DNA of 64,000 nt from an uncultured Actinomycetota bacterium (GTDB lineage: Bacteria > Actinomycetota > Actinomycetes > JAFAQI01): positions 832,197-896,196 of the forward strand of contig CAWBLI010000008.1 in the NCBI GenBank assembly GCA_963789615.1, read 5' to 3'. The notes beneath the pieces are model-generated. The model was not told the DNA's origin, did no database searches, and was given only the letters and a program-made list of their open reading frames with translations. Below are positions 10,552 to 28,828 of the stretch, one piece after another. Position numbers and translations under genes: made by a program. Positions within the stretch are counted from its first letter, which is position 1. Every line of letters begins with the position of its first letter.

Positions 10552-10584
10552 CCCCGGGGTGCCTTTAGGGTCTTTCGTCCCGGT

Positions 10585-10956
10585 TCAGCCGGGACTTCTG
10601 TCATGACGCTCCGGTGCCGGCTCGTAGAGCCGGGCGGCCGCTTGTCGTGAGATCTTCATGTGCCGCGCCACGTCCGTCAGTGACAGACCACCCTCATCGA
10701 CAAGCGCGCGCACGACATCGGCACGCATTGAGGCGATGGCGCGCTCGTATTCACGAAACACGTTAGCCGCGCTCAGGCGAGTCTCCCGCCCGCCGGCCCC
10801 GATCAACTCGTCGACGACACCGACGATAGGGCGACCCGCGTTCCGTGCCTCACAACCCTCGTGCAACGCACCGACCGCCGTCTCGATCGCGAGGCAGGCC
10901 CGGCGACCAGCCTCTGCAACCCGCTCGGCCGATCCGACGAACCAGTCCTCCGTCAT
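10585..10956 (-). CDS. small helix-turn-helix protein
   Basis: 123 aa with a C-terminal HTH-like LSLTDVARHMKISRQAAARLY. It ends 33 nt upstream of the PAS-EAL gene, so the two are probably co-transcribed. Confidence 0.5.
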   Translation of the reverse strand: MTEDWFVGSAERVAEAGRRACLAIETAVGALHEGCEARNAGRPIVGVVDELIGAGGRETRLSAANVFREYERAIASMRADVVRALVDEGGLSLTDVARHMKISRQAAARLYEPAPERHDRSPG

Positions 10957-11043
10957 CGGTTACTCACAAAATGCACAAGTCCACCATCGCACGACTAGGT
11001 GAAGGCCGTACGCAACTCGTGCACGCGAGTGTGCATGCCGTGG

Positions 11044-12708: not shown

Positions 12709-12975
12709 GTGAGGGTCCCAATCGCCGTCCCCCCGTCCGCCGGAGCGTGTCTAGCGGTCGAGTAATCCGAACGTTACGCTGGGTGTCCAGTTGGCCCGAG
12801 GAGGGCTCGGACGAGGCTGCCACCGCTGCGGCAAGCGGCGCGGCAGATCGAGCAAGACGGACCTAGTCGCAGAAAGACAAATCCGGACCAAATATTCGAC
12901 CGCGTGCGCCCACGACACCACGCTGCCTCCACGACAGAATTGGTTCTCCTACTCCCCAGTCCAAGGAGGTGTCCC

Positions 12976-13719
12976 GTGTCTGAGCTTCCAGCCCCTGAGC
13001 GTCGATACGAGACATATGTCCATCGCCTAGAACAACGACTCGACGAAATGGTTTTCGATCATGATGGACTCGCGGAACAGCCCGAGGCAGCAGCGTGGCT
13101 CGTCCGAGCCGCCCTCAGCTACGGGAACTTGCCGCGAGCCCGGGCCGTCGTCAAGGCGACGGAGCGGATGGCCGGGGGCGGGACCGATCCCCTGGGAGCC
13201 GCAGCCGCCCTCGAGCATGCACGAGGGTTGTTGAAACGCGACGCCGTTGCGTTGGAGCGAGCCGCGACTTCACACCGGCTCCCGCGGGCACAGGCAAGCG
13301 CGGCCGAAGACGCAGCGGTCGCTCGGATGGAACGCGGCGAGACCACCCGCGCGATCGAGCTCCTTAAGCAGTCGCGAGCGGGGTACGAATCAGTGAACGC
13401 CGAGCAGGATCTGGCGAGGATTCGCTCACGGATGCGGGGCGTCGGGGTGCGCACGCAGCACTGGACTTACGCTCAGCGACCGTCGTTCGGCTGGGGGAGC
13501 CTCACGGACACCGAGCGACGGGTCGTCGATCTGGTATCAAGCGGCCTCACCAACCGTGAGGTGGCGCAGCACTTGTTCCTCTCGCATCACACCGTCGCCT
13601 TTCACCTACGGCAGATCTTCCGAAAAGTCGACGTCTGTACGCGGGTCCAGCTCACCCGCGACTGGTTGGAGCAGCCAACAGTGATCGCGGGTGGCCGGCA
13701 TGCGGCCGCATCGCCGTGA
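12976..13719 (+). CDS. LuxR family transcriptional regulator
   Basis: The C-terminal LuxR HTH is LTDTERRVVDLVSSGLTNREVAQHLFLSHHTVAFHLRQIFRKV. Start placed at GTG 12976, which has AAGGAGG 6 nt upstream and is in frame with ORF 12904. Confidence 0.8.
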   Translation: MSELPAPERRYETYVHRLEQRLDEMVFDHDGLAEQPEAAAWLVRAALSYGNLPRARAVVKATERMAGGGTDPLGAAAALEHARGLLKRDAVALERAATSHRLPRAQASAAEDAAVARMERGETTRAIELLKQSRAGYESVNAEQDLARIRSRMRGVGVRTQHWTYAQRPSFGWGSLTDTERRVVDLVSSGLTNREVAQHLFLSHHTVAFHLRQIFRKVDVCTRVQLTRDWLEQPTVIAGGRHAAASP

Positions 13720-14087
13720 AGCTTGATGATCCGCAGCAGCCCTCCGTCATGATCAGCACTGAGATCTCGGGCGAAGACACCTGTTTCCTGGTCCGACGAA
13801 CCGGTACGGCAGCCCAAGTGCGCATCAGCGGCACTCTGCGGGCAACCGACGCGCCAGCGCTGCGGAGGTGGTTCGGTCGGATGATCGACGACGGAGTGGA
13901 CTTCCTCGATGTGGACCTGGCAGGCGTTCACGAGATCGACCGTGCCGGTCTCGCGACGCTCCTCATCGTGTCGCGTCGGCTCAGGCAGCGAGGCGGCCTT
14001 CACTTCCGAGCGCTGAGCGATGAGTGTCGAGGTGCGCTGCAGCAAGCCCACTTGTTCACCGTGGAGCTCGATGACAGGAGGTGGTGA
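13716..14087 (+). CDS. STAS-domain anti-sigma-factor antagonist
   Basis: The GTG start overlaps the LuxR stop (GTGA). The STAS layout is LDVDLAGVHEIDRAGLATLLIVSRRLRQRGGLHFRAL. Confidence 0.8.
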   Translation: MKLDDPQQPSVMISTEISGEDTCFLVRRTGTAAQVRISGTLRATDAPALRRWFGRMIDDGVDFLDVDLAGVHEIDRAGLATLLIVSRRLRQRGGLHFRALSDECRGALQQAHLFTVELDDRRW

Positions 14088-14395
14088 AGGTGCCACCCAA
14101 AGGCGTTCCGTACGACGAGCCGATCACTACATGCTGCCAAGCCCATATCAGCTGGTCCGAGCTCGCGATACACCTTCATCGTGATTTCGATGTGGAAGTC
14201 AATGGGGCCCTGGTTACAGATGAGATGGACCGGGCCAGTGACGCTCTGACCTTGTTCGGTATCAGCAGTGAGGAGGAGCGGCTGTTCATCGGTGAGCGCA
14301 TCGTGCGCCATCACCTTGAGATCCTGAGTGGACAACGCCGGCTGGCGTCTCGGCTCGACCCTGAGCGGCACACTCAGCGCGAGAACGTCCTGTAA
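14081..14395 (+). CDS. uncharacterised small protein P1 (paralog of 23323-23685)
   Basis: It overlaps the STAS stop. The start is ambiguous among GTGs at 14081, 14084 and 14090, with AGGAG at 14076. It shares CC..HI.W..LA.HL..DF ... RLDPE.H with the second copy. Confidence 0.55.
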   Translation: MVKVPPKGVPYDEPITTCCQAHISWSELAIHLHRDFDVEVNGALVTDEMDRASDALTLFGISSEEERLFIGERIVRHHLEILSGQRRLASRLDPERHTQRENVL

Positions 14396-14410
14396 GCCGC
14401 CGCCAACAAG

Positions 14411-14441
14411 TCGGGGTGGCGCCCCGTGGACGCCACCCCGA
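14411..14441. terminator. perfect 11-bp stem / 9-nt loop hairpin between convergent genes
   Basis: tcggggtggcg-ccccgtgga-cgccaccccga lies between the stops at 14395 and 14456. Confidence 0.5.
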
Positions 14442-14455
14442 TGGTGCGATGTTCG

Positions 14456-15148
14456 TCAGTCACCACCGAATGGCCGAACCTTGATCTTGTTCACTACCTC
14501 GACGACACCGGGCGCAGACCATGCGGCCCGCTCGGCCTCGCGGCGCTCGGCCCAGGACCCGACCTTGCCCTTCAGGGTGACCGTGCCGCCGGCGGTCTCC
14601 ACCTGGATTCCGTGTGCGTCAGTCTCTGCGTTACGCACCAGCGCGGCCTCGACCCTGTGCTTGAGCGTCTCAGGCGACGGTGAGACGAGGGGCCTCACGG
14701 AGATGAGGTTGCTGACGCCACGGACCCCGGTGAGACGCCGTACCGCCCGCTCAGCGCTACGTCGCTCGAACTCCCACGGCACCTCTCCACGCAGCGTCAC
14801 CCATCCCTTGGAGACGGTGACCTCGATCTTGTCTGTCGGCAGCGCCGCCTCCCACTCGAGGGCGCGAACCGCCGCCGCGGCAATGTCCGCGTCGGTGCGC
14901 TGTGCGGTTCCAGGAAGGCGTACCTCAATGTCATTTGCCACCGCGGCAACACCCTTGACTCGCAGTGCCGCCTTTTCCGCATCCCACCGCTTCGGGTAGG
15001 AGTCGACGTAGCCGGTCAGCGTGACGACGCCGCCCTTGACGGACACGCCGATCTCATTCGGCTGAACCGACGCGTCCCACTTCAGCTCCTCCATGACATC
15101 CTTCTGAACCTGTTCATCCGTTTTGGCATCTAGCACGCTGGTTGCCAC
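14456..15148 (-). CDS. BON-domain protein (three BON repeats, OsmY-like)
   Basis: It carries repeated V.V..G.VTL.G.V......R..AE.A motifs. Start set to GTG 15148 with GGAGG 5 nt upstream; the longer ORF reaches 15259. Confidence 0.85.
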
Positions 15149-15276
15149 TGCTTCCTCCTGACGTCTGACGGCACTCGGGGTGGTGCCAAACCCGACTGTC
15201 GTCGCCGACGTAAGCCAGGGCATCCCCTGTCCGGCTAGGGCATCGGATCGCCCGCTCACAGCCAGCGCGCGGGCGC

Positions 15277-15306
15277 CACGCCCATCCCTCGTTTAGGGGA
15301 TGTGTG
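15277..15306. promoter_or_regulatory. imperfect palindrome shared with the hsp20 upstream region
   Basis: cacgcccatccctcgtttaggggatgtgtg lies 29-58 nt upstream of the DUF1931 ATG. Compare cacaccatccccttctaggatgtgtg at 26095-26120. Confidence 0.35.
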
Positions 15307-15334
15307 CGCGGCCGGCACCCTTGACAGTGGCCCG

Positions 15335-15784
15335 ATGCCCGTCGCTGGAGTCCCAGAGTTCGAGCGGTTCTTCCGTGAGGCGGCCTCGCTGCGCGTCGAC
15401 AAGGACGACCTCAAACGCTATGCGGGCTTCCTCGACCGCAAGGTGTCCGACCTTCTGCTGCGTGGCACGGCGAACGCCAAGGCCAACGGTCGCGACGTTA
15501 TGGAAACCTGGGACCTTCCGGTGACCAAGGGTCTGCAGGAGTCGATTCACGACTATGACCAGATCGACGCCGAACTAGGTTTGCGCCGGTTCATCGAGCC
15601 GCTGGTGAAGCGACCACCGTTGGACGTGACGCTCAGCGAGGAAGCGGAGGCGGATCTCCCGCACGTCGCTGGTGGCCTCAGCGTCGCCTTGGCGCGAGCA
15701 CTTGTCGTCATCGACCCCGGCCTGCGTAACCCGTCCACCGAGCACTGGGATCGCGCCTTCCGGATCTTCGACCTGCTCCTCTGA
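15335..15784 (+). CDS. DUF1931-family (histone-fold-like) protein
   Basis: [29 protein letters not shown]...[13 protein letters not shown] matches my recollection of the DUF1931 family end to end. ATG at 15335. Confidence 0.7.
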
Positions 15785-15849
15785 GTGCCCCTCGGTCACT
15801 ACTCATTCTGGGGATGCGCACGGGTTCGAGCTATTTGCAGGGTGAGGTC

Positions 15850-17760
15850 ATGGCCAAAGCAGCAGGAATCGACCTCGGTACGACGAACTCTGTGATCGCC
15901 GCCGTAGAGGCCGGCCAGGCCCAGGTGATCCCCAACTCTGAGGGGGCGCGAACGACACCGTCTGTCGTCGCGTTCACTGAGTCGGGCGAGCGCCTCGTGG
16001 GTCAGCTGGCCCGTCGCCAGGGGATCCTCAACCCGAAAGGGACGATCTACTCCGCGAAACGGTTCATTGGACGCCGGTACGACGAGGTCAGGAACGAGAT
16101 CGACACCGCGACGTTCGACGTCGTACCCGGTCCGGACGATTCAGTGCGGTTCAAGGTCCGGGACAAGCTGTACGCCCCCGAGGAGATCTCTGCCCAGGTC
16201 CTGCGCAAGCTCGCCGATGACGCGTCGAAGCAGCTGGGCGAGAGGGTCACCGAGGCGGTCATCACCGTTCCGGCGTACTTCAACGACGCACAGCGGCAGG
16301 CGACGAAGGACGCCGGACGCATTGCGGGGCTCGAGGTGTTGCGCATCATCAACGAGCCAACCGCCGCGGCGCTCGCTTACGGTCTGGACAAGGCCGAGCA
16401 CGAGACGGTGCTCGTCTACGACCTCGGCGGCGGGACGTTTGACGTCAGCATCCTCGACGTCGGTGACGGTGTCGTCGAGGTCCGCTCGACGTCCGGTGAC
16501 ACCCATCTCGGTGGAGACGATTTCGATCGCCGCATCGTCGATTTCCTCGCGGATGAGTTCAAGAAGAGCAACGGCATCGACCTGCGCAATGACCCGCAGG
16601 CCTTGCAGCGGTTGTTCGAGGCCGCCGAGAGAGCGAAGGTCGAGCTGTCGTCGGTTACCCAGACGACGATCAATCTGCCGTTCGTCACGGCAGACGCGTC
16701 CGGCCCGCAGCACCTGAATGTCACGCTGATGCGGTCCACGTTCGAACAGATCACGACTGACCTGGTCGAACGGACGAGCGCACCGGTCGAGCAGGCGATG
16801 GCCGACGCGAAACTCACCGCCAGCGACATCGACGAAGTCATCCTGGTTGGCGGCTCGACGCGGATCCCGGCGGTTCAGAACTTGGTCCGCCGCCTGACGG
16901 GTGGCAAGGATCCGAACATGTCGGTCAACCCCGATGAGGTCGTCGCCATCGGGGCCGCTATCCAGGCCGGCGTGCTGAAGGGCGAGGTCAAGGACGTCCT
17001 GCTCCTTGATGTCACGCCGCTATCCCTAGGCATTGAAACGCTCGGCGGGGTCATGACCAAGGTGGTCGACCGCAACACGACGATCCCGGCACGACGCACG
17101 GAGACGTTTAGCACCGCGGAAGACAACCAGAACGCCGTCGACGTCGTCGTGCTCCAGGGTGAACGGGAGCGCGCCAGCGACAATCGCGTCCTCGGTCGGT
17201 TCCGGCTGGAGAACATCCGACCGGCACCGCGAGGTGAGCCGCAGGTCGAGGTGACGTACGACATCGACGCGAACGGCATCCTCAATGTCTCGGCGCGGGA
17301 CAAGGACACGGGCGCGGAGCAGCGCATCACCATCAGCGAGAGCAGCAACCTCGACAAAAGCGAGGTTGAGCGAATGGTTTCGGATGCTGAGGCGAACCGT
17401 TCGGATGACACCCGGTTGCGACAGGACGTGGATGCCCGCAACGAGCTCGATAGCGTTGCTTACCAGGTCGAGCGCCGACTGAACGAGCTCGGTGACGCCG
17501 TACCAGTCAACGAGAAGGCGCGCGCCGAGATGCTCGTCAACGACGCGCGACAGGCGATCAAGGACGGGGCCCCACTGGAGCGGATGCGTTCGCTCACCTC
17601 GGATCTGCAGCAGGTGAACCAGAGCCTGTCCGTGTCGGGGCAGACGCCGTACCCGGACCCGGGATCCGCCGGTGACGTAAGCGGCGGCGCGGGAGGGCGA
17701 GGGGGCGATGCCCCGTCCGAGGACGATGACGTCGTCGACGCCGAGTTCACGACCAGCTGA
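15850..17760 (+). CDS. dnaK: molecular chaperone DnaK (Hsp70)
   Basis: [38 protein letters not shown] and [14 protein letters not shown] are present. ATG at 15850 follows GGTGAGG. Confidence 0.97.
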
Positions 17761-17766
17761 GCCGCT

Positions 17767-18285
17767 ATGACCGACGACCAGAGGACGACGCAGCAGAATC
17801 CGACCGGGGCACCTACCCAGGCGGAAGACCGCTCGAACGAGGTTGCGGACCTGCAGCAGAAGGTCGCCGAGCTCGAGGGCCGATGGCGGCAGTCGCTGGC
17901 CGACCTCGACAACCTGCGCAAGCGGGTAGCGCGAGACAGTCAGCGCATCGTTGAGCAGGAGCAGGGGCGTCTCACGGAGCAGTGGCTGCCAGTGGTCGAC
18001 AATCTGGAGCTCGCGATCGCCCACGCCGACGCTGATCCAGCGACGATCGTTCCGGGGGTCAAGGCGGTCTTGTCGCTCGCGATCGACCTGCTGGCTCGAC
18101 TGGGCTACCCACGACACGACGACGTCGGCGTACCGTTCGACCCGTCACGTCACGAGGCAGTCAGCGTGGTCCACGCCTCCGACGTACCCGAGGGAACCGT
18201 CGTCGATGTGGTGCGTCCCGGCTATGGCGGGGACGATCACCCGCTCCGGCCGGCCTCGGTGGTGGTGGCGTCGAGGCCGGACTAA
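17767..18285 (+). CDS. grpE: nucleotide exchange factor GrpE
   Basis: It has the coiled-coil LADLDNLRKRVARD and the C-terminal PFDPSRHEAV...G.V..V.RPGY signature. It lies immediately after dnaK. Confidence 0.9.
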   Translation: MTDDQRTTQQNPTGAPTQAEDRSNEVADLQQKVAELEGRWRQSLADLDNLRKRVARDSQRIVEQEQGRLTEQWLPVVDNLELAIAHADADPATIVPGVKAVLSLAIDLLARLGYPRHDDVGVPFDPSRHEAVSVVHASDVPEGTVVDVVRPGYGGDDHPLRPASVVVASRPD

Positions 18286-19592: not shown

Positions 19593-22223
19593 ACCGGTTG
19601 ACGCAGAAGTCGCAGGAAGCTGTACACGACGCGCAGACCATCGCGCTGCGCTACGGCCACACTGAAGTTGATGGCGAGCATCTGCTGCTCGCATTGCTCG
19701 ACCAGCCCGACGGTCTGGCGTCGCGGCTCCTGGAGCAGACGGGAGCGGACGTCGGTCGCATCCGGTCGGCGATCGAGGCCGAGGTCGCGACGCCGGCCGC
19801 GGGTGAGCGGCCCGGGCGCCTCCCCGGGCCAGGTGTACGTCACACAGCGACTGTCCCGTTTGCTGGATGCCGCGGAGCGAGAGGCCAAGCGGCTCAAGGA
19901 CGAGTACGTGTCCGTGGAGCACCTGCTTGTCGCGCTGCTCGACGAAGGCGCCGAGACCGGTGCCGGCCGGGTGTTGCGGGATAACGCCGTCAGCCGCGAC
20001 AAGTTCTTGCAGGCGCTGACCACGATCCGGGGCAACCAGCGGGTTACGTCGGCGATGCCGGAGGTGGCCTACGAGGCGCTCGAGAAGTACGGTCGCGACC
20101 TCGTCGTCGACGCTCGTAACGGCAAACTGGATCCAGTGATCGGCCGTGACGCCGAGATCCGCCGTGTCATTCAGATCCTTTCACGCAAGACCAAGAACAA
20201 CCCAGTCCTGATTGGTGATCCGGGCGTCGGCAAGACCGCGATCGTCGAGGGTCTCGCCCAACGGATCACCAACGGTGACGTACCGGAGGGGCTTCGCGAC
20301 AGAACGGTCTTCGCACTGGACATGGGTTCGCTGGTGGCGGGCGCGAAATACCGCGGTGAGTTCGAGGAACGGCTCAAGGCCGTACTCAATGAGGTGAAGG
20401 CCGCTGAGGGACGCATCCTGCTCTTCGTCGACGAGCTGCACACAGTGGTCGGTGCTGGCGGCGGAGCCGAAGGGGCCATGGACGCCGGCAACATGTTGAA
20501 GCCGATGCTGGCACGCGGCGAGCTTCACATGGTCGGTGCCACCACCGTTGACGAGTACCGAAAGAACGTCGAGAAGGACGCAGCGCTCGAGCGTCGGTTC
20601 CAGCCGGTCATGGTGGACGAGCCGTCCACCGAGGACGCGATCTCCATCTTGCGTGGGTTACGCGAGCGGCTTGAGGTATTCCACGGCGTCAAGATCCAGG
20701 ACAGCGCGCTCGTCGCAGCGGTGGTGCTGAGCCAGCGGTACATCTCGGACCGGTTCCTTCCGGACAAAGCAATCGACCTCGTCGACGAGGCATGCGCGAT
20801 GCTGCGCACCGAGATTGACTCCATGCCGGCCGAGCTCGACGAGCTGACCCGTCGCGTGATGCGACTGGAGATCGAGGAGACGGCGCTCGCCAAGGAGACC
20901 GACCCAGCTAGCAGGTCCCGCCTCGAGGAGCTACGTAAGGAACTCGCCGATCTGCACGCCGAGGCCGATGCGATGCGCGCACAGTGGGACGCCGAGCGGC
21001 AGGCGCTTCGCCGGGTGCAGGAGCTTCGCCAGGAGATCGAAAGAGTCCGGCAGGAGGCCGAGCAGGCAGAGCGCAGGTACGACCTCAACCGCGCGGCCGA
21101 ACTGATGCACGGCCGGCTGCCTGATCTGGAGCGGCAGTTGCACGCTGAGGAGGAGCGACTCGCCTCACGGCAAGGCGGCCGGCGGCTGCTGCGCGAGGTC
21201 GTGAGCGACGATGAGATCGCCGCCATCGTGTCGCGCTGGACCGGTATCCCCGTCAGCCGACTGCATGAAGGTGAGCGCGAGAAGCTTCTGCGCCTGGAAG
21301 AAATCCTCCATGCGCATGTGGTGGGCCAGGATGAGGCCGTTCAGCTGGTCTCCGACGCGATCATTCGGGCTCGTTCCGGCATCAAGGACCCGCGCCGACC
21401 CGTCGGGTCGTTCATTTTCCTGGGCCCCACGGGTGTCGGGAAGACCGAGCTGGCCAAGCGGCTTGCGGGAACGTTGTTCGACACCGAGGACAACATGGTT
21501 CGCATCGACATGAGCGAGTACCAGGAACGGCACACCGTCAGCCGGCTGGTCGGAGCGCCGCCAGGCTATGTCGGGTACGACGAAGGCGGTCAGCTCACCG
21601 AGGCCGTGCGCCGCAAGCCCTACTCGGTGGTGCTGTTCGACGAGATCGAGAAGGCTCACACCGACGTCTTCAACATCCTGCTGCAGGTGCTCGACGACGG
21701 CCGGTTGACGGACGGGCAAGGTCGTACGGTCGACTTTCGGAACGCCATCGTGATCATGACATCCAACGTCGGCTCCACGTATCTCATCGAGGGCGTCTCA
21801 GCCGCTGGCGAACTGAAGCCCGAGGTTCGCGACCTCGTGATGACGGAGCTGCAACAGCAGTTCCGGCCCGAGTTCCTGAACCGCGTTGACGAGATCGTGC
21901 TCTTCAAGCCGCTCACCCAAGGCGAGATCGAGCGCATCGTCGACCTGATGCTCAACGATCTGCGCGAACGGCTCGGCGACCGCCGCATATCCCTTGAGAT
22001 CACGGCGGAGGCACGCCAGTTCGTCGCTGCTCAGGGATATGACCCCGTGTACGGCGCCCGACCGTTACGCCGATTCATCGCACGAGAGGTCGAGACCCGG
22101 ATCGGCCGAGCCCTGCTGCAAGGGAACGTTCCGGACGGCTCCACCATCCGGATTGCCGTCTCCGAAGGGGAGCTGGCCGTCACGTTCAACCCACCGTCAC
22201 CCGCAGCCCAAACTGCGGCCTGA
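19583..22223 (+). pseudogene. clpB: ClpB disaggregase, reading frame broken by a 1-nt insertion near 19790 (or sequencing error)
   Basis: The N-terminus [45 protein letters not shown]...IEAEVA is in frame 19583. The rest, [46 protein letters not shown]... through both AAA+ modules to 22223, is in frame 19668. GGAGG lies 6 nt before ATG 19583. Confidence 0.9.
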
Positions 22224-22251
22224 TCCAGCGCGTACGGATCGCGGACGAGCC

Positions 22252-23265
22252 TCACGACACTTGATCGTCGTGGTGCTCGTCGTTCTTGCCCCGGCGTCGC
22301 TGACGTTCGCCGTACGCCGCTTGCCGTACCACGTCGTCGTGTTCCAGTCCCGAACCAAGCGCGCCTCCGATCATGGCTGCTGACGTGGCAAACCAGACGA
22401 TGCCGAGGCGGCCGGCCCAGGTCGGCGCGTGCCCCAACGTCGTCTGTAGTACCTGAGGAGGCAAAACGATCACGCTGATGATGGTGAGGACGATGAACAA
22501 GCCCAGGTAGAGGCAGACGATCCCCAGCATCAACGTGACGGAGGTCGTTATGTTGTACAGCCGAGCCAGCTGCTTCGCCCGCACATCGCTCGGACGCTCC
22601 CACAGCTCGTGGTCAACGATCAACCACGTCGTTAACGCCAAGCTCGACAGAACCGCAATGCCGCCGAGTCGACCAGGACCGAGCGAGACGCCAAGTTGCC
22701 AGCCAACGTTGTCGAGCAATACGAGCGCTGCCGTGCCGAACACACCGGCAAGCGACCGCGACAGCCCGGAAAAGAGGAGCCAGGGACGGTTGGCACGCAC
22801 CATGCCCAGGAGGAGACGAAGACGAGGGCGCAGGCGTGAACTGACCGGATGTGGATGCCCCGAAGAGCCTGGCTCAAGAAGCTCAGCCACTGAGGACGCG
22901 ATGACCCGCTCTGCCCGGCGATTCAGTCGCAGAGCACCTAACGCTGGCAAGGACACCACCATGACGCGGCGATCAGCGCTCGTCTCAATCTCGACGGGGT
23001 CGGTGCCATCCCGGCGTGGCAGATCGGTCAGCAGCACCGTGATGTCCCACGTCGGCTCGATTGGGACCTCCGCAGCAGCTATGTCCGCTAGCTGCGTTTG
23101 GACCCCGGTAGCGAGCGGATGACTCCGATGGTGCACGCGCCAGTCGACTTCGCCCTGGACGAGCTGCTTCATCGCCTCGGCGAGTCGGCCGGCCACGGCA
23201 GCACCGACATCCTCCGCCAGTCCCGGGTCGCTGACGATACCGATGTCGACCGAGCGTGGGTCCAT
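22252..23265 (-). CDS. hypothetical membrane protein (soluble N-terminal domain plus 4-5 TM helices)
   Basis: 337 aa with good G/C third-position bias. TM helices include WLLFSGLSRSLAGVFGTAALVLL and VTLMLGIVCLYLGLFIVLTIISVIVL. I cannot assign a family. Confidence 0.6.
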   Translation of the reverse strand: MDPRSVDIGIVSDPGLAEDVGAAVAGRLAEAMKQLVQGEVDWRVHHRSHPLATGVQTQLADIAAAEVPIEPTWDITVLLTDLPRRDGTDPVEIETSADRRVMVVSLPALGALRLNRRAERVIASSVAELLEPGSSGHPHPVSSRLRPRLRLLLGMVRANRPWLLFSGLSRSLAGVFGTAALVLLDNVGWQLGVSLGPGRLGGIAVLSSLALTTWLIVDHELWERPSDVRAKQLARLYNITTSVTLMLGIVCLYLGLFIVLTIISVIVLPPQVLQTTLGHAPTWAGRLGIVWFATSAAMIGGALGSGLEHDDVVRQAAYGERQRRRGKNDEHHDDQVS

Positions 23266-23322
23266 TCCGCAGTTGTACCCGTGTTACTGCCGGTGCCGCA
23301 CGGGAAGCCCCAGGGAAGCGCG

Positions 23323-23685
23323 TTAGTCTTCCCGGCCGGTTCCAGGCCACTCGTGGGGGATATGCCGGGCCGCCTGCGGGAATCGTCGAGAGTGTTGCTC
23401 CGGGTCCAGCCTGGCGACATCAGCGATTCGTCCGCTCCTGAGCGCGAGTCGGTGCCGCGCGATGAGTTCGGCGATCAATAGCGCATCGTCGGCCATGGAC
23501 AGATCGACTCGTTCGGCGGCTTCCTTCGCCATCCAGACCTCCTGAAGCACCTCCTGAGTAGTCAGCTCGGAGAAGTCGACGACGAGATGAGCGGCGAGAG
23601 TCACCCAGTCAATGTGCCGAGGGCAACAACGCGGCTTGCGGCAGGTCCATGGGACAAGGCTCGTCGGAAACGCCTTGTCGCGCAT
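23323..23685 (-). CDS. uncharacterised small protein P2 (paralog of 14081-14395)
   Basis: Start placed at ATG 23685 (MRDKAFPTSLVPWTCRKPRCCPRHIDW...). It aligns with P1 along its length. The longer ORF to 23922 has an implausible Arg/Ser-rich N-terminus. Confidence 0.5.
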   Translation of the reverse strand: MRDKAFPTSLVPWTCRKPRCCPRHIDWVTLAAHLVVDFSELTTQEVLQEVWMAKEAAERVDLSMADDALLIAELIARHRLALRSGRIADVARLDPEQHSRRFPQAARHIPHEWPGTGRED

Positions 23686-23812
23686 CCCTTCAACTGCTAG
23701 CCCTTCTTGCTCACCACTCGGCAGCCAGGACAGTGATCTTCTGGGAGAGAAGGCGCACACACCATAGTCGGCGGTGCCGGAGCGTTCTCCTGGTCGGTAC
23801 CCAGCGGGTGCT

Positions 23813-24385
23813 TCACCGCCGGGCACCGACCTTCGCGGCGGCTTGAACTGCTGCCAATAGCCTCGGCAGCTCATACGAGCCGTCGTAACGGACGTCGTTG
23901 ATGAAGAACGTTGGGGTGCCATTCACCCCGCTGCGCGCTCCGCTGAGAAAGTCGGCTCGCACGCGCGGTGCATGTTCACGGTCCACGAGTTCTTGCGCGA
24001 ACCGCTGCTCGTCGAGTTCTAGGTATCGCGCATAGGCAAGGAGGTCCTCGTCATCGAGCGCATCTTGGTGGGTGTAGAGCAGGTCGTGCATCGGCCAGAA
24101 CGCGCCCTGAGCACTGGCGCACTCTGCCGCCTCCGCCGCCGGTTCCGCGCGGGGGTGGACCGTGGTTAAGGGAAAGTGCCGGAAGACGTAACGTACGTCA
24201 GGCTCGGCGCGGAGCAAGTGAGCCACGATGAGATGGGCCTGACCGCAATATGGACATTGGTAGTCGCCGTACTCCACGAGCGTCACGGGCGCATCATTGG
24301 GCCCGCGGATGTGGTCGCGGTTGGGCGAAACGGGCTCACGGAGACTGGCCGGCGCTTCTGCGTATCCATCCCAAGCCGTGCTCAT
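23813..24385 (-). CDS. DsbA-family thioredoxin-fold oxidoreductase
   Basis: MSTAWDG...LVEYGDYQCPYCGQAH contains the CPYC active site. ATG 24385 overlaps the upstream stop (ATGA), which implies translational coupling. Confidence 0.85.
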   Translation of the reverse strand: MSTAWDGYAEAPASLREPVSPNRDHIRGPNDAPVTLVEYGDYQCPYCGQAHLIVAHLLRAEPDVRYVFRHFPLTTVHPRAEPAAEAAECASAQGAFWPMHDLLYTHQDALDDEDLLAYARYLELDEQRFAQELVDREHAPRVRADFLSGARSGVNGTPTFFINDVRYDGSYELPRLLAAVQAAAKVGARR

Positions 24386-24870
24386 GCGCTCACCTTGTCT
24401 CGTTGCGACAATGACTCGAGAGCAGCCAGGACACCGTCCGCGCCGGGGTTCACTCCGACCGGTGAGAGGTAGCTCCAGTCGATGACCCCGTTGCGATCGA
24501 TAACGAAAAGCGCGCGCTGGCTGAAGCCGTCCTGGGTGCGGTAGGCGCCGTACGACTGGGCAACCTGACCCTTGGGCTCGAAATCGGACAGCAAGGGGTA
24601 TGTGATCTTGCGGTCGTGGGCGAACGCGAGATGACACCACACGCCATCGACGGAGATGCCCAGCAGCTCGGCGTGGTAGTTCCGGAACTCCGGTATGAGC
24701 TCTTGAAAAAGCACCATCTGGTCGCTACAGACGGGACTCCAGTCCGCGGGGTAGAAGGCCAGGATGACGGGATGACCGCGGAAGTCCGTCAAGGACACCC
24801 TCTGGTCCGGTGTGCTCGCTAGCGAGAACTCGGGAGCTTGGACACCTCTTTGAAGCGTTCGTCCGTCCAT
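24382..24870 (-). CDS. peroxiredoxin (AhpC/TSA family, AhpE-like)
   Basis: VILAFYPADWSPVCSDQ carries the peroxidatic Cys context. ISVDG, YPLLSDF and ALFVIDRNGVI are also present. Confidence 0.9.
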   Translation of the reverse strand: MDGRTLQRGVQAPEFSLASTPDQRVSLTDFRGHPVILAFYPADWSPVCSDQMVLFQELIPEFRNYHAELLGISVDGVWCHLAFAHDRKITYPLLSDFEPKGQVAQSYGAYRTQDGFSQRALFVIDRNGVIDWSYLSPVGVNPGADGVLAALESLSQRDKVSA

Positions 24871-24921
24871 GAGATCACTACACCAAGGTCGTCGCCGGCC
24901 GACATCGTCAATCCTGACGGG

Positions 24922-25194
24922 TCATTTCACCTCGTCACGGATGCCTGGACCACCGTCGACGTCGCCCGGTCGGCTCCACCCGCGCTTGTACCGGGCGTTG
25001 TCAGGCACCTCGCCGCTCAGCCGCATCATCTGGTATTGGGTCATCGTCTCGACGGTCGGCAGATGCTCGGCCTCGTCGAGGCCGAACGCGTCGGCTGCCT
25101 GTCGGTTCCGGGTGATGTTGTCGATGACCTCACCCGCCGCGACCTGCGGGAACTGGCTCGACCAGACGGTGAGCCAGATCGACCCAGCCGTCAT
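24922..25194 (-). CDS. hypothetical protein
   Basis: Counted from ATG 25194, third-position G/C bias is very strong. Product: MTAGSIWLTVWSSQFPQVAAGEVIDNITRNRQ... No family recognised and the start is uncertain. Confidence 0.45.
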   Translation of the reverse strand: MTAGSIWLTVWSSQFPQVAAGEVIDNITRNRQAADAFGLDEAEHLPTVETMTQYQMMRLSGEVPDNARYKRGWSRPGDVDGGPGIRDEVK

Positions 25195-25616
25195 CTTGGC
25201 GCTCTTGGCGTCGCCCGTCGGCTCACCTCGGGCAATGACGTCACCCCTCACAGCTGCCGTGCACGGTCGGGCCCCGACCATGCGCTCGCCTGCCACTGAC
25301 GACCGTTATCGGGCCGCCGGCCCGCGGGGGCGAACGCTGGCTGGACCGCGCCCGACGTCGAGAGCGTCTGGTCTCTACGCGACTGAGCGGCTGGTCGGAC
25401 GCCGTCCCCTCCCCGGTTGCCGGCGGGAGGACGGTCCCGCCGGCAGCCGGTTCCGCGGGCGGTGGGTGGCACGGTTGGCCAGCCCGCCGCGATGATGGCG
25501 TCGAACTCCGCGCGCAGCAGCTCCTCATCGGCGCAGATCAGGTCAGCGAACTCCGTCGTCCCAGGCCCGTGCGGAGGAGCGCTCTGCCAGGTATGCGGTC
25601 ATCGGCGCCACCGCGC

Positions 25617-26054
25617 TCAGACGTTGATGGCCTGACGGTCGTGGCCGTTGCTGTTGCTGCTGATCGTGATCTTGCGGGGCTTCGCCTGCTCGGCGACTGG
25701 GATCCGCAGCGTCAGGACACCGGCGTCGTAGCTCGCGGCGACGCGTTCGGTGTCGAGGGTGTCGCCGAGGATGAGCTGCCGGCTGAACACGCCGCGGGGC
25801 CGCTCGGCGGCGATGAGCTCGGTGTCGTCATCGCGGCCGGCGCGCTCTGCCTTGACGGTCAGGACGTTGCGTTCCACGTCGAGGTCGATCGAGTCCGGTG
25901 CGACGCCCGGCAGGTCGAGCTCGACGACGAACGTGTCGCCGTCGCGCCACGCGTCCATCGGCATCACGGCCGGGCGAGCGAGCGTTCCCTGGGTTCCGAA
26001 GACCTGCTGAGACAGTCGGTCCAGCTCGCGGAACGGGTCAGTGCGCATCAGCAT
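25617..26054 (-). CDS. Hsp20/alpha-crystallin small heat-shock protein
   Basis: [14 protein letters not shown]...[18 protein letters not shown]...[13 protein letters not shown]...[17 protein letters not shown] 26054 has GGAGGTGGAGCA upstream. Confidence 0.92.
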
Positions 26055-26094
26055 TGCTCCACCTCCGTCGTAGTGACTGATGCTCCCTACGAGG

Positions 26095-26120
26095 CACACC
26101 ATCCCCTTCTAGGATGTGTG
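26095..26120. promoter_or_regulatory. imperfect palindrome in the hsp20 / hspR-like divergent region, shared with 15277-15306
   Basis: cacaccatcc-ccttcta-ggatgtgtg forms 10-11 bp arms with one bulge. It lies 41-66 nt upstream of the hsp20 ATG. Confidence 0.35.
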
Positions 26121-26210
26121 CCAAACACTATAGATTTGATCTATCACAGGTAGCATACTGAGGCAAGAGCCCGGGAAGGTTCCGGACGAGAACGAGGAGA
26201 GGTGTAGGAC

Positions 26211-26585
26211 GTGGCAGGTGTGCCGGCACCGGACGCCGACCGTGGCGTGTACGGCATCACGACCGCCGCTGAGCTCGTCGGCATGGGCGTGCAGAACCTA
26301 CGTCTGTACGAGGCGCGGGGTCTGCTCGAACCGGACCGGACCGACGGCGGCACCCGCCGTTACAGCGCCCACGACCTCGACCGGTTGCGTCGCATCGGTG
26401 ACCTGCTCGACGCCGGGCTGAACCTCGCCGGCATCGGCATGGTCCTCGGCCTCGAGACCGAGAACGCGCAGCTGCGAGCTGAACGGGACGACCAAGTAGG
26501 CCTACCCACCGCCAGACTGCACCCCACCCGCAAGGCTGCATCGGATTCCGCGACCGAGGCTGCTACCCCCGGGCATCGCGGTTGA
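26211..26585 (+). CDS. MerR-family, HspR-like heat-shock regulator
   Basis: YGITTAAELVGMGVQNLRLYEARGLLEPDRTDGGTRRYSAHDLDRLRRIGDLLDAGLNLAGI parallels the HspR N-terminal HTH region. The gene is divergent from hsp20. Confidence 0.8.
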   Translation: MAGVPAPDADRGVYGITTAAELVGMGVQNLRLYEARGLLEPDRTDGGTRRYSAHDLDRLRRIGDLLDAGLNLAGIGMVLGLETENAQLRAERDDQVGLPTARLHPTRKAASDSATEAATPGHRG

Positions 26586-28810: not shown

Positions 28811-28828
28811 AGGCGCAATATCACCGTT

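What the first reader, a model, noticed from the sequence alone, without database searches (positions are those of the whole stretch)
12976..26585. Compact proteostasis/stress cluster combining a DnaK system, ClpB, sHsp, redox and osmotic-stress modules
Within 13.6 kb lie: LuxR-STAS-P1 (overlapping start/stop codons), a triple-BON protein, DUF1931, dnaK-grpE-cbpA/cbpM-clpB in one direction, an unknown membrane protein, P2, DsbA-like plus AhpE-like peroxiredoxin (ATGA-coupled), a hypothetical gene, hsp20 and a divergent HspR-like regulator. The J-protein is CbpA-type with a CbpM-like partner, not the DnaJ-HspR pair of the canonical actinobacterial dnaK operon. This hints that it is a second, specialised chaperone set. 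The gene mix (sHsp, ClpB-type disaggregase, thioredoxin-fold proteins, membrane proteins) resembles the transmissible heat-resistance / protein-quality-control loci of Gram-negative bacteria. It sits in a region with island hallmarks.
Basis: partly seen in the sequence, partly recalled or inferred. Interest (0 to 1): 0.65.

Follow-up and report, generated by a model that had tools for sequence, protein, structure and literature searches.

The report
Accessory Thermus-type DnaK–ClpB chaperone operon
This is a real stress-gene cluster built around a second, horizontally spreading copy of the DnaK–ClpB protein-rescue machinery that many soil actinobacteria carry, often on plasmids; it is a plausible transferable stress-tolerance module but belongs to a gene set already seen and annotated elsewhere.

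Summary
All the listed genes are present at 12976-26585. The core is one translationally coupled operon: dnaK, grpE, a zinc-finger-less J-protein, a CbpM/DafA-like small protein, and clpB.

This DnaK is 72-84% identical to copies on at least 21 Streptomyces, Rhodococcus, Gordonia, Nocardia and Arthrobacter plasmids. It is only 59% identical to the canonical Nocardia farcinica chromosomal DnaK, and it falls in a separate clade. Every core protein, and DUF1931, has its best solved-structure match in Thermus thermophilus.

Small heat-shock, DUF1931, thioredoxin-system, protease and membrane genes also recur around the operon in relatives. The window's own redox genes and the P1/P2 pair are specific to this lineage.

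In this sequence the J-protein and CbpM read as one ORF, and clpB is frameshifted. Each is a single extra base that is absent from relatives about 94% identical. Both are probably assembly errors.

ClpB passes the ClpB model and fails the ClpG and ClpK models, so this is not a member of the Gram-negative heat-resistance locus (tLST); the resemblance is functional only. No mobility gene lies in the window. Whether this genome has a second dnaK locus could not be checked.

The parts
11044..12708 (-). PucR-family regulator (GGDEF_2 + HTH_30).
   Evidence: Pfam. Homologues at 32-41% identity lie close upstream of dnaK, divergent in 9 of them, in L001, L004, L006, L007, L008, L011, L015, L026, L086 and L088; the near-identical L085 also has it.
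12976..13719 (+). LuxR/GerE-type regulator. The start is uncertain (the ORF opens at 12904).
   Evidence: PF00196, E = 3e-13. The close relative L085 has a 247-aa call.
13716..14087 (+). STAS-domain protein, of the anti-sigma-factor-antagonist type.
   Evidence: PF01740 and PF13466. GTGA overlap with the LuxR stop.
14081..14395 (+). P1, a small orphan protein and paralogue of P2.
   Evidence: No Pfam or NCBIfam hit. Only 8 homologues among 5.8 billion proteins. 38% identical to P2.
14456..15259 (-). Triple-BON (OsmY-like) protein. The start is uncertain; the best coding signal begins at 15094.
   Evidence: PF04972 in 3 stretches, E = 5.7e-54. OsmY and ArfA models hit below their cut-offs.
15283..15302 (.). 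Palindrome CATCCC-N8-GGGATG followed by TGTGC, just upstream of DUF1931-dnaK. Candidate shared operator.
   Evidence: It is one of only two CATCC-N5-10-GGATG sites in the 64-kb window. Read from the sequence.
15335..15784 (+). DUF1931 (histone-fold-like) protein, probably the first gene of the operon.
   Evidence: PF09123, E = 8.5e-50. Best PDB match is T. thermophilus TTHA1479, 137 bits. Found near the operon in 8 related loci.
15850..17760 (+). DnaK of the accessory ('DnaK2'/Thermus-type) clade.
   Evidence: PF00012, E = 1e-243. 72-84% identical to plasmid and island copies, 59% to the canonical N. farcinica DnaK. Tree.
17767..18285 (+). GrpE nucleotide-exchange factor.
   Evidence: PF01025. 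TAATG overlap with the next gene.
18285..19281 (+). Class B J-protein: J domain, G/F-rich region and DnaJ_C, with no zinc finger and no cysteine. In this sequence it reads through into the next gene because of one extra base.
   Evidence: Pfam. Sequence. The closest homologues (92% and 88%) are separate 331-aa proteins. Alignment.
19278..19592 (+). CbpM/DafA-like small protein (MerR_2), 104 aa.
   Evidence: PF13591. A profile of 14 orthologues hits CbpM (3UCS, E = 3.8e-12) and DafA (9DVI_S, E = 9.7e-7).
19583..22223 (+). clpB, interrupted by one extra base at about 19790. Removing that base gives an 879-aa ClpB.
   Evidence: The corrected protein scores 1337 bits on TIGR03346 (cut-off 1232). 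Best PDB match is T. thermophilus ClpB, 1QVR.
22252..23265 (-). Unknown protein with 2-3 predicted transmembrane helices in its C-terminal half.
   Evidence: Hydropathy. No family hit. Homologues at 26-53% identity lie near the operon in L009, L015, L020, L026 and L086.
23323..23685 (-). P2, paralogue of P1. The start is uncertain (the ORF opens at 23922).
   Evidence: BLASTP, E = 9e-16.
23813..24385 (-). DsbA-like thioredoxin-fold protein.
   Evidence: PF13462 and PF01323. ATGA coupling to the upstream peroxiredoxin.
24382..24870 (-). AhpC/TSA-family peroxiredoxin.
   Evidence: PF00578, E = 1.5e-36.
24922..25296 (-). Hypothetical protein with good third-position GC (GC3) and no family hit.
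   Evidence: GC3 = 0.82-0.84, depending on the start used. No hits.
25617..26054 (-). Hsp20/alpha-crystallin small heat-shock protein.
   Evidence: PF00011, E = 2.1e-22. 63-67% identical to the Hsp20 genes beside the plasmid operons in L001, L083 and L086.
26100..26116 (.). Palindrome CATCC-N7-GGATG followed by TGTGC, in the hsp20/regulator intergenic region. Second copy of the candidate operator.
26211..26585 (+). MerR_1-family, HspR-like regulator, divergent from hsp20.
   Evidence: PF13411. NCBIfam HspR at 82.7 bits, below the cut-off of 105.

Best explanation
The core is an accessory, horizontally spreading, self-contained Hsp70-ClpB disaggregation operon of the Thermus thermophilus type. 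Its gene order is (DUF1931-)dnaK, grpE, class B J-protein, CbpM/DafA-like modulator, clpB. A PucR-family regulator accompanies it. Around it sits a lineage-specific set of stress genes: an sHsp with an HspR-like regulator, a BON protein, a DsbA-like protein with a peroxiredoxin, LuxR-STAS-P1, and a membrane protein.

**Shown.** The gene content, the translational coupling, and membership of the clade carried on plasmids. The clade is distinct from the canonical actinobacterial DnaK and ClpB. sHsp, DUF1931, thioredoxin-system, protease and PucR genes recur around the operon in relatives.

**Inferred, by analogy with the Thermus and E. coli systems.**
- Under heat, desiccation or oxidative stress the sHsp holds unfolding proteins.
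- The J-protein targets the cognate DnaK to aggregates.
- DnaK recruits and activates its co-transferred ClpB, which threads out polypeptides for refolding. GrpE resets DnaK.
- The CbpM/DafA-like protein keeps the J-protein and DnaK in a resting complex until clients displace it.
- Carrying all partners on one operon makes the machine independent of the host's own DnaK. That would explain why it moves as a unit.
- The shared palindrome upstream of DUF1931-dnaK and of hsp20 suggests that the two units form one regulon. The adjacent HspR-like repressor is the candidate for controlling it.

The J-CbpM fusion and the clpB frameshift are most likely single-base assembly errors.
For: - **Operon integrity and coupling:**
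- **Conserved gene order:** the same five-gene order occurs at 72-84% DnaK identity in plasmids of Streptomyces, Rhodococcus, Gordonia, Nocardia and Arthrobacter, and in chromosomes or MAGs of several actinobacterial orders and classes.
- **Multiple copies in one strain:** Rhodococcus sp. DK17 carries the operon's dnaK on two plasmids.
- **Same species, two types:** the N. farcinica chromosomal dnaK-grpE-dnaJ...clpB locus is 59% (DnaK) and 61% (ClpB) identical to the window. The N. farcinica plasmid copy is 79.6% and 80% identical.
- **Tree:** in a neighbour-joining (NJ) tree the accessory clade is monophyletic. It is sister to dnaK-cbpA-cbpM-clpB operons of Syntrophobacterales, Desulfobacterales and Firmicutes. 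Canonical actinobacterial DnaK sits elsewhere.
- **Co-transfer:** DnaK and ClpB identities to the window co-vary across loci, r = 0.86.
- **Thermus as nearest solved relative:**
  - DnaK: 9DVI_B 745 bits, against 695 for E. coli and 683 for the chain 6W6E_I.
  - J-protein: 6PSI/9DVI.
  - ClpB: 1QVR 1036 bits, against 977 for 6DJU.
  - DUF1931: TTHA1479.
  - Small protein: its profile hits both CbpM and DafA.
  -.
- **Recurrent neighbours:** the PucR-like regulator occurs in 11 of 32 loci counting the near-identical L085, so in 10 independent ones. trxA, a UBP zinc finger and TrxR follow clpB in 17, 10 and 13 of 32 loci.
- **Literature:**
  - A strain-specific 'heat shock island' with Hsp18, DnaK, GrpE, CbpM and ClpB in P. 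freudenreichii (PMC5644110).
  - A dnaK2-grpE2-dnaJ2 operon in S. avermitilis (PMC5402319).
  - dnaK2 and dnaK3 induced about 60- to 125-fold by heat in S. incarnatus (PMC13284173).
  - The DnaK-DnaJ-DafA resting complex of Thermus (PMC3727329).
- **Frame disruptions:** each is a +1 base relative to L089 and L090, which are about 94% identical. Only 1 of 120 J-protein homologues is fused. A thiamine-pyrophosphate (TPP) enzyme gene elsewhere in the window has three +1 shifts within about 330 nt.
Against: - The rest of the genome was not available, so a canonical dnaK operon in this organism is inferred, not seen.
- There are no expression or functional data for this locus or for any close relative.
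- The window's right-flank genes (P2, DsbA-like, peroxiredoxin, hypothetical, HspR-like) have no counterparts beside the operon in the other loci. The thioredoxin module common in relatives is absent here. The 13.6 kb may therefore not be one functional unit.
- The candidate operator is not found in more distant relatives. Its half-site spacing differs between the two copies (N8 against N7). One arm is changed in the close relative L085.
- If the clpB frameshift is real, the disaggregase would lack its first N-domain repeat or be inactive.
- No mobility gene is in the window.
Confidence: 0.7

Rival explanations
1. It is this lineage's only (housekeeping) dnaK/clpB locus. A Thermus-type operon has replaced the canonical dnaK-grpE-dnaJ-hspR arrangement.
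For: In Thermus this operon type is the main chaperone system (own knowledge, plus PMC3727329). Several related copies are chromosomal: L003, L009, L015, L020. The window's right side carries ordinary core-type genes (the paa operon, hppD).
Against: The clade is carried on at least 21 actinobacterial plasmids whose hosts have canonical chromosomal loci (N. farcinica example). The neighbourhood differs in every relative and even in a 98-99.5% identical contig. As written, the operon carries two frame disruptions. That is hard to reconcile with an essential single copy unless they are errors.
Confidence: 0.08
2. It is a decaying relic. The accessory operon is being pseudogenised: clpB is frameshifted and cbpA-cbpM are fused. 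It no longer works as a disaggregase set.
For: There are two +1 insertions within 510 nt of the operon, relative to intact relatives. The clpB insertion is not in a homopolymer run. Gene remnants exist elsewhere in the window, for example a LysR fragment at 52762-53106. A DUF308 gene is lost relative to L085.
Against: All other operon genes are full length with strong coding signal. Both changes are single added bases with no further damage downstream. The window also has a cluster of three +1 shifts in another otherwise well-conserved gene, and the net frame is restored. That looks like a local assembly error. The closest relatives are intact.
Confidence: 0.2
3. Only the five-gene operon is a functional unit, perhaps with the PucR regulator and the hsp20 pair. 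LuxR-STAS-P1, BON, the membrane protein, P2, DsbA-like, peroxiredoxin and the hypothetical gene are unrelated neighbours in a regulator-rich accessory region. The 'compact proteostasis cluster' is partly an artefact of how a reader groups genes.
For: P1, P2, DsbA-like, peroxiredoxin, the hypothetical gene and the HspR-like regulator have no counterparts next to the operon in the other loci. The P1 family has only 8 members anywhere. Several transcription directions are involved. The surrounding 30 kb is dense in unrelated sensory and regulatory genes: EAL, PAS, LuxR, a kinase, an ECF sigma factor.
Against: The same functional classes recur around the operon in relatives through non-orthologous genes: sHsp, STAS, thiol-redox, membrane and BON/OsmY-type stress proteins. 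The membrane protein has homologues at five other loci. A near-identical 10-nt block and flanking arm are shared by the dnaK-side and hsp20-side promoters.
Confidence: 0.35

Closest known systems
Thermus thermophilus dnaK-grpE-dnaJ-dafA-clpB operon (the DnaK-DnaJ-DafA 'KJA' complex plus ClpB)
   Same: The gene order is the same. (For Thermus the order is from my own knowledge.) The J-protein is class B with no zinc finger (PMC3727329). A small protein homologous to DafA sits between the J-protein gene and clpB (profile E = 9.7e-7). Thermus proteins are the best solved-structure matches for DnaK, the J-protein, ClpB and DUF1931.
   Different: In Thermus it is the organism's main system. Here it belongs to a clade that in actinobacteria is additional, often plasmid-borne, and accompanied by a PucR-type regulator and variable stress genes. 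The small protein scores better against E. coli CbpM than against DafA (48.8 against 31.5 bits).
Accessory 'dnaK2' operons and 'heat shock islands' of Actinomycetota (S. avermitilis dnaK2-grpE2-dnaJ2; P. freudenreichii JS9/JS20 island; plasmid copies in Rhodococcus, Nocardia, Gordonia, Arthrobacter, Streptomyces)
   Same: Same five-gene order. DnaK is 72-84% and ClpB 73-85% identical. A PucR-like regulator, Hsp20 and DUF1931 lie nearby (PMC5644110, PMC5402319).
   Different: The window lacks the trxA, UBP zinc-finger and TrxR genes that usually follow clpB, and the 'general stress protein' that often precedes dnaK. Instead it has LuxR-STAS-P1, BON and DUF1931 between the regulator and dnaK, and a DsbA-like/peroxiredoxin pair. 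No mobile-element genes are in view. Whether the published Streptomyces dnaK2 genes fall in exactly this clade was not tested.
Canonical actinobacterial dnaK-grpE-dnaJ-hspR operon with HAIR operators (Streptomyces, Mycobacterium)
   Same: Both start dnaK-grpE-J-protein and have a MerR-superfamily protein in fourth position. An HspR-like regulator and an sHsp are close by.
   Different: The J-protein lacks the zinc finger. The fourth gene is MerR_2/CbpM-like, not HspR. clpB is inside the operon. No HAIR site is found even with 3 mismatches. DnaK and ClpB are only 59% and 61% identical to the N. farcinica chromosomal proteins and sit in a different clade.
Transmissible locus of stress tolerance / locus of heat resistance (tLST/LHR) of beta- and gamma-Proteobacteria
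   Same: Both are compact mixes of an sHsp, an AAA+ disaggregase, thiol-redox proteins and membrane proteins. Relatives of this operon add PsiE, thioredoxin, an M48 protease, HtrA-like proteases, FtsH and an HdeD-like DUF308 protein, and they sit on plasmids.
   Different: The disaggregase is a DnaK-dependent ClpB, not the stand-alone ClpG/ClpK. It comes with a complete Hsp70 system. There is no sequence relationship beyond shared superfamilies. None of the tLST accessory genes tested by tblastn is in the window.
E. coli cbpA-cbpM pair
   Same: A class B J-protein is followed by a MerR_2 protein whose start overlaps the J-protein stop in relatives. The profile hit to CbpM 3UCS has E = 3.8e-12.
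   Different: Both proteins fall below the NCBIfam equivalog cut-offs: 214.6 against 403 bits and 27.9 against 138 bits. Here they are embedded in a dnaK...clpB operon. DNA binding by this J-protein is untested.

Membership tests
Accessory Thermus-type dnaK-grpE-J-cbpM/dafA-clpB operon clade of Actinomycetota | Five genes in this order on one strand, with short gaps or overlaps | tested here: met
   The same order occurs in the fully covered accessory-clade loci: L001-L003, L005, L006, L008, L009, L011, L014, L015, L020, L026, L083, L084 and L086-L088.
Accessory Thermus-type dnaK-grpE-J-cbpM/dafA-clpB operon clade of Actinomycetota | DnaK and ClpB group with the plasmid or island copies and not with canonical actinobacterial proteins | tested here: met
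   NJ tree for DnaK only. 72-84% identity against 59-61%. ClpB was judged by identity only, not by a tree.
Accessory Thermus-type dnaK-grpE-J-cbpM/dafA-clpB operon clade of Actinomycetota | PucR-family regulator next to the operon | tested here: met
   Window 11044-12708. Homologues in 10 independent related loci. Here it is separated from dnaK by about 3 kb of inserted genes.
Accessory Thermus-type dnaK-grpE-J-cbpM/dafA-clpB operon clade of Actinomycetota | trxA, UBP zinc-finger and TrxR genes downstream of clpB (frequent, not universal) | tested here: not met
   tblastn of these proteins against the window found nothing.
Accessory Thermus-type dnaK-grpE-J-cbpM/dafA-clpB operon clade of Actinomycetota | Present in addition to a canonical dnaK locus in the same genome | not testable with these tools
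   Only 64 kb of a 960-kb contig is visible. The one genome-collection scan did not contain this genome.
Canonical actinobacterial dnaK-grpE-dnaJ-hspR operon | Class A DnaJ with a CxxCxGxG zinc-finger domain | tested here: not met
   No PF00684 hit. There is no cysteine in the J-protein.
Canonical actinobacterial dnaK-grpE-dnaJ-hspR operon | hspR as fourth gene, and HAIR (CTTGAGT-N7-ACTCAAG) operators | tested here: not met
   The fourth gene is MerR_2/CbpM-like. There are 0 HAIR matches with up to 3 mismatches in 64 kb.
tLST / LHR | Stand-alone disaggregase ClpG/ClpK flanked by sHsp genes | tested here: not met
   ClpG model 774.7 bits and ClpK model 772.3 bits, against cut-offs of 1900. ClpB model 1337 bits, against 1232.
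tLST / LHR | Accessory genes (YfdX, HdeD, KefB, Trx, PsiE, M48 protease, DegP) | tested here: not met
   PsiE, M48, trypsin-like, TrxA and DUF308 queries taken from related loci give no hit in the window. YfdX and KefB were not specifically searched.
E. coli CbpA/CbpM | Equivalog-level similarity to CbpA and CbpM | tested here: not met
   PRK10266 214.6 bits against a cut-off of 403. PRK10265 27.9 bits against 138. At family level, Pfam MerR_2 scores 40.2 bits against 29 and the profile hit to 3UCS has E = 3.8e-12, so that level is met.
HspR regulators | Score above the NCBIfam HspR equivalog cut-off | tested here: not met
   82.7 bits against a cut-off of 105. HspR is still the best-scoring model for 26211-26585.
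ClpB (TIGR03346) | Full-length match above the curated cut-off | tested here: met
   1337.2 bits against 1232.1, after removing the extra base at 19790. As written, the gene is frameshifted.

The most novel reading that the evidence does not exclude
This operon family is the actinobacterial counterpart of the proteobacterial tLST. It would be a plasmid- and island-borne, self-sufficient protein-quality-control module that confers transferable tolerance to heat, desiccation or oxidants. The module comprises:
- a PucR-regulated DnaK, GrpE, class B J-protein, CbpM/DafA-like modulator and ClpB;
- sHsp genes;
- thiol-redox genes.

The whole Hsp70 set travels with ClpB because DnaK-ClpB cooperation is partner-specific. 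In this lineage an HspR-like repressor with a new operator (CATCC-N7/8-GGATGTGTGC) would tie hsp20 and the dnaK operon into one regulon.
Probability: 0.35. Interest if true: 0.65.

Novelty: new member of a known kind. Interest (0 to 1): 0.42.

Why it matters
Transferable stress-tolerance loci are well studied in Gram-negative bacteria, where they matter for food safety and disinfection. They are essentially unstudied in actinobacteria. This locus belongs to a widespread operon family that moves a complete Hsp70-ClpB machine between soil, industrial and clinical actinobacteria, including Nocardia farcinica plasmids from human isolates.

If the operon confers tolerance, it would explain strain differences in heat or desiccation survival. 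It would also give a natural test of how partner-specific DnaK-ClpB cooperation is. The link between CbpM and Thermus DafA suggests that one conserved mechanism holds J-proteins in reserve. For this particular window the value is modest: it adds a lineage-specific variant, with no functional data.

Tried and rejected
- **HAIR operator search.** 0 hits, so canonical HspR control is rejected.
- **Promoter and terminator scan.** Nothing above shuffled expectation.
- **Shared regulatory motif upstream of dnaK across 22 accessory loci (21 related loci plus the window).** k-mer counts and inspection gave only GC-rich noise. The window's palindrome is absent from the more distant relatives.
- **Source identification.**
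  - Exact-protein look-ups for DnaK (two starts), Hsp20 (two starts), the peroxiredoxin and the membrane protein found nothing.
  - Only GrpE retrieved a near-identical metagenome contig.
  - The genome-collection scan did not contain the source (best 84% identity).
  - A distant DNA search with the right-hand 7.5 kb against plasmids was uninformative for taxonomy.
- **Natural J-CbpM fusion protein.** Rejected as the likely reading. Only 1 of 120 homologues is fused, the nearest relatives are separate, and the cause is a single extra base.
- **Programmed frameshift in clpB.** Rejected, because close relatives are in frame at the same place.
- **CbpM-like protein as a close paralogue of the HspR-like regulator.** No BLASTP similarity.
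- **The tRNA-Lys att-like repeats as the borders of the chaperone island.** Rejected, because the bounded segment is 40.6-56.5 kb.

Full report
**1. What is in the sequence**

The window is about 65% G+C with high third-position GC.
- LuxR/GerE, about 12976-13719 (+).
- STAS, 13716-14087 (+), with a GTGA stop/start overlap.
- P1, 14081-14395 (+).
- A protein with three BON domains.
- DUF1931, 15335-15784 (+).
- DnaK, 15850-17760 (+).
- GrpE, 17767-18285 (+).
- A J-protein, starting at 18285 with a TAATG overlap.
- A MerR_2 (CbpM-like) protein.
- ClpB, 19583-22223 (+).
- An unknown protein with 2-3 predicted membrane helices, 22252-23265 (-).
- P2, 23323-23685 (-).
- A DsbA-like protein, 23813-24385 (-), ATGA-coupled to an AhpC/TSA peroxiredoxin, 24382-24870 (-).
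- A hypothetical gene, 24922-25296 (-).
- Hsp20, 25617-26054 (-).
- A divergent MerR_1 regulator, 26211-26585 (+). Its best model is HspR, below the cut-off at 82.7 against 105 bits.

- The BON protein is on the minus strand (14456-15259). The overlapping plus-strand ORF has no BON signal.
- P1 and P2 are paralogues: 38% identity over 92 residues, E = 9e-16. They belong to a tiny orphan family of 8 proteins among 5.8 billion.

**2. Two frame anomalies**

The J-domain, DnaJ_C and MerR_2 domains sit in a single 435-aa ORF. The first Clp_N repeat of clpB is in a different frame from the rest of the gene.

Two metagenome contigs about 94% identical in DNA (L089, L090) have separate genes: a 331-aa J-protein, a 104-aa CbpM-like protein and an intact clpB. 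The window has exactly one extra base at each site.

Only 1 of the 120 best J-protein homologues is a fusion. The two closest (92% and 88%) are not.

A thiamine-pyrophosphate (TPP) enzyme gene at 44.6-46.4 kb shows three further +1 shifts within about 330 nt. The frame is restored, and the conserved sequence is readable in each frame in turn.

I read these as local indel errors of a long-read metagenome assembly. The contig is 960 kb, and a sister contig has a 'contig_45207'-style name and many indels. A real, very recent frameshift in clpB cannot be excluded; I put that at about 0.2. With the extra base removed, ClpB is 879 aa. It passes the ClpB equivalog model (1337 against 1232 bits) and fails ClpG and ClpK (about 775 against 1900 bits).

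**3. What the core is**

The order dnaK, grpE, class B J-protein, cbpM-like, clpB recurs with 72-84% DnaK identity in these places:
- Plasmids of Streptomyces, Rhodococcus, Gordonia, Nocardia farcinica and Arthrobacter. Several are mobilizable or conjugative, and some copies lie next to IS or Tn7-like genes.
- Chromosomes or MAGs of Streptosporangiales, Pseudonocardiales, Micrococcales, Frankiaceae, Acidimicrobiales and Solirubrobacteraceae.

Identity then drops sharply. It is 62-70% in dnaK-cbpA-cbpM-clpB operons of Syntrophobacterales, Desulfobacterales and Firmicutes. It is 66% in cyanobacterial plasmid copies. It is 60% or less for everything else.

A Nocardia farcinica chromosomal fragment carries the canonical dnaK-grpE-dnaJ...clpB arrangement. 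Its DnaK and ClpB are 59% and 61% identical to the window, against 79.6% and 80% for the N. farcinica plasmid copy.

In a neighbour-joining (NJ) tree of 90 DnaK sequences, the accessory copies form one clade that includes the window. The N. farcinica chromosomal and Coriobacteriia canonical proteins group together elsewhere. Within the clade, taxonomy is only partly respected:
- Acidimicrobiales falls among Actinomycetes.
- Two Frankiaceae MAGs sit in different places.
- The Nocardia plasmid is separate from the Rhodococcus and Gordonia plasmids.

Rhodococcus sp. DK17 has copies on two plasmids. DnaK and ClpB identities to the window co-vary across loci (r = 0.86), as expected if the operon moves as a unit.

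**4. Closest characterised system**

For every component, the best solved-structure match is from Thermus thermophilus:

| Component | Best match | Comparators |
|---|---|---|
| DnaK | 9DVI_B, 745 bits | E. coli 695; 6W6E_I 683 (M. tuberculosis chain, to my knowledge) |
| J-protein | 6PSI/9DVI and 4J80 | |
| ClpB | 1QVR, 1036 bits | 6DJU 977 |
| DUF1931 | TTHA1479, 137 bits | |

4J80 is named as T. thermophilus DnaJ in PMC8215388.

A profile built from 14 of the small proteins matches two chains over nearly their full length. One is E. coli CbpM (3UCS, E = 3.8e-12). The other is the 'Protein DafA' chain of 9DVI (E = 9.7e-7).

The J-protein has the HPD motif, a G/F-rich region and DnaJ_C, but no zinc finger and no cysteine. 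In this it resembles Thermus DnaJ (PMC3727329).

From my own knowledge, the Thermus operon is dnaK-grpE-dnaJ-dafA-clpB. The locus is therefore best described as a Thermus-type operon that serves as an additional set in actinobacteria.

In Thermus, DafA assembles DnaK and DnaJ into a resting complex from which client proteins expel it (PMC3727329). In E. coli, CbpM blocks the J-domain of CbpA (PMC8215388, PMC4063869). A similar holding role is the most likely function of the small protein here; this is an inference.

**5. The neighbourhood**

A PucR-family regulator (window 11044-12708, just outside the reported coordinates) has 32-41% identical homologues close upstream of dnaK in ten independent related loci, divergently oriented in nine of them. 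It is the best candidate for the operon's dedicated regulator. In this lineage LuxR-STAS-P1, BON and DUF1931 lie between it and dnaK.

Counts of neighbours among 32 accessory-type loci (L085 is a near-identical relative of the window, so it adds little independent weight):

| Neighbour | Loci |
|---|---|
| trxA, right after clpB | 17 |
| UBP zinc-finger protein | 10 |
| Cyclic-nucleotide-binding thioredoxin reductase | 13 |
| Hsp20 | 9 |
| DUF1931 | 8 |
| Membrane 'general stress protein' before dnaK | 9 |
| Trypsin-like protease | 6 |
| Homologue of the window's membrane protein | 5 |

Individual plasmids add an M48 protease, FtsH, PsiE, FUSC, a mechanosensitive channel, STAS or a second Hsp20.

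The window itself lacks the thioredoxin module and all of these proteases. Its DsbA-like/peroxiredoxin pair, P2, the hypothetical gene and the HspR-like regulator have no counterparts beside the operon elsewhere. The theme of chaperones plus sHsp plus thiol-redox plus envelope stress proteins is therefore recurrent, but it is filled by different genes in different lineages.

A contig 98-99.5% identical to window 8541-19000 carries an extra DUF308 (HdeD-like) gene between BON and DUF1931. The locus therefore varies even within the population.

**6. Regulation**

No HAIR site exists in the window. Sigma-70 and terminator scans are uninformative.

The pattern CATCC-N5-10-GGATG occurs exactly twice in 64 kb. 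One copy, at 15283-15302, lies just upstream of DUF1931-dnaK. The other, at 26100-26116, lies in the hsp20/regulator intergenic region. The two copies also share CCATCCC on the left and an identical GGATGTGTGC on the right.

By my own estimate, a shared 10-mer between two intergenic regions of about 240 and 156 nt is expected about 0.07 times. A correctly placed second block makes chance very unlikely.

The adjacent HspR-like protein is the natural candidate to bind both copies. That would mirror HspR control of dnaK, clpB and an sHsp gene in mycobacteria and Streptomyces (own knowledge). Three points weaken this: the spacer differs (N8 against N7), one arm is altered in the sister contig, and the motif is absent from more distant relatives. 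It stays a hypothesis.

**7. Island status**

No integrase, transposase or plasmid gene was found among the window ORFs that were scanned or read; not every ORF was put through Pfam.

Third-position GC is about 0.79-0.81 across most of 1-56 kb, except 0.86 in the 43.5-50.5 kb block. It is 0.89 to the right of a tRNA-Lys gene at 56435-56509.

The 3' 45 nt of that tRNA plus 18 nt of flank are repeated at 40615-40677 with 94% identity. This is a classic att-type signature. It bounds a 15.8-kb segment that does not contain the chaperone cluster.

The claim that the cluster sits in a region with island hallmarks is therefore only weakly supported in this window. The case for mobility rests on the relatives.

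**8. Comparison with tLST, and prior knowledge**

The resemblance to the proteobacterial transmissible locus of stress tolerance is functional and compositional, not homologous. tLST is built around the stand-alone disaggregase ClpG/ClpK. This locus carries a DnaK-dependent ClpB together with its whole Hsp70 system.

The operon family has been noticed before:
- A 'heat shock island' with an 18-kDa Hsp, DnaK, GrpE, CbpM and ClpB, unique to two Propionibacterium freudenreichii strains. It is mentioned only in a figure legend (PMC5644110).
- A dnaK2-grpE2-dnaJ2 operon in Streptomyces avermitilis (PMC5402319).
- Strongly heat-inducible dnaK2 and dnaK3 in S. incarnatus (PMC13284173).

My searches found no functional or comparative study of it. 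A 2021 Hsp70 review still describes CbpM as conserved in gamma-proteobacteria (PMC8215388).

**9. Verdict**

- The interpretation as a second, specialised chaperone set is the best-supported reading. It is not proven for this genome.
- The tLST comparison is an analogy.
- The island claim is weak for this window.

This is a new, lineage-specific member of an already annotated but uncharacterised family. Interest is moderate. The family as a whole could make the partner specificity of DnaK-ClpB cooperation, and transferable stress tolerance in Gram-positive bacteria, directly testable.

Noticed in passing
window 40615-40677 and 56417-56479 (tRNA-Lys(CTT) at 56435-56509, minus strand): The last 45 nt of the tRNA plus 18 nt of flank form a 63-nt direct repeat (94% identical). 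This att-like pair bounds a 15.8-kb segment. The segment has no integrase, and it holds a truncated LysR fragment and the frameshifted TPP-enzyme gene. Third-position GC rises to about 0.89 to the right of the tRNA.
   Followed up: partly
window about 45805, about 45885 and about 46134 (TPP-dependent enzyme gene, 44622-46427): Three single-base +1 shifts occur within about 330 nt. They restore the original frame, and conserved protein sequence is readable in each frame in turn. This probably marks a local assembly-error cluster and bears on how far to trust the clpB and cbpA/cbpM frame changes.
   Followed up: partly
L085 6758-7497 (between window 15265 and 15285): A metagenome contig 98-99.5% identical to the window has an extra 203-aa DUF308 (HdeD-like) membrane-protein gene between the BON gene and DUF1931. 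The window lacks it, and short similar sequences flank the difference.
   Followed up: partly
alignment A3; PDB 3UCS_A and 9DVI_S: A profile of the operon's small proteins matches both E. coli CbpM and the Thermus 'Protein DafA' chain over nearly full length. This implies that DafA and CbpM are one family. I did not find this stated in the papers searched.
   Followed up: partly
window 14081-14395 (P1) and 23323-23685 (P2): Two paralogous small proteins flank the operon. They share a CC..HI.W..LA.HL motif and a C-terminal RLDPE.H motif. The family has only 8 members in 5.8 billion proteins, all from close relatives. P1 is translationally coupled to the STAS gene.
   Followed up: partly
window 26130-26144: A perfect AT-rich palindrome, ATAGAT-TTG-ATCTAT, lies in the hsp20/HspR-like intergenic region. 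It is next to the CATCC...GGATG palindrome and is unusual in a 65% G+C sequence.
   Followed up: no
window 3855-12708 and 26627-30640: The cluster is embedded in a dense set of signalling genes. They include a PAS-EAL and a GAF-EAL phosphodiesterase, three LuxR-type regulators (two with PAS-like N-termini), a Ser/Thr kinase and an ECF sigma factor. A hemerythrin-domain protein lies just beyond, at 31156-31806. A link between c-di-GMP signalling and the stress genes is possible.
   Followed up: no
L002 1050-5711; L001 24284-26675: In the Rhodococcus qingshengii plasmid pLP1, the operon lies next to Tn7-like tnsA and TniQ genes. In the Streptomyces sp. NBC_01001 plasmid it lies about 10 kb from a block of paralogous ribosomal-protein genes (L32, S18, type B L31, L33, L28).
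   Followed up: no
window 52762-53106: A 114-aa ORF matches only the C-terminal part of the LysR substrate-binding domain. It is a probable gene remnant.
   Followed up: no
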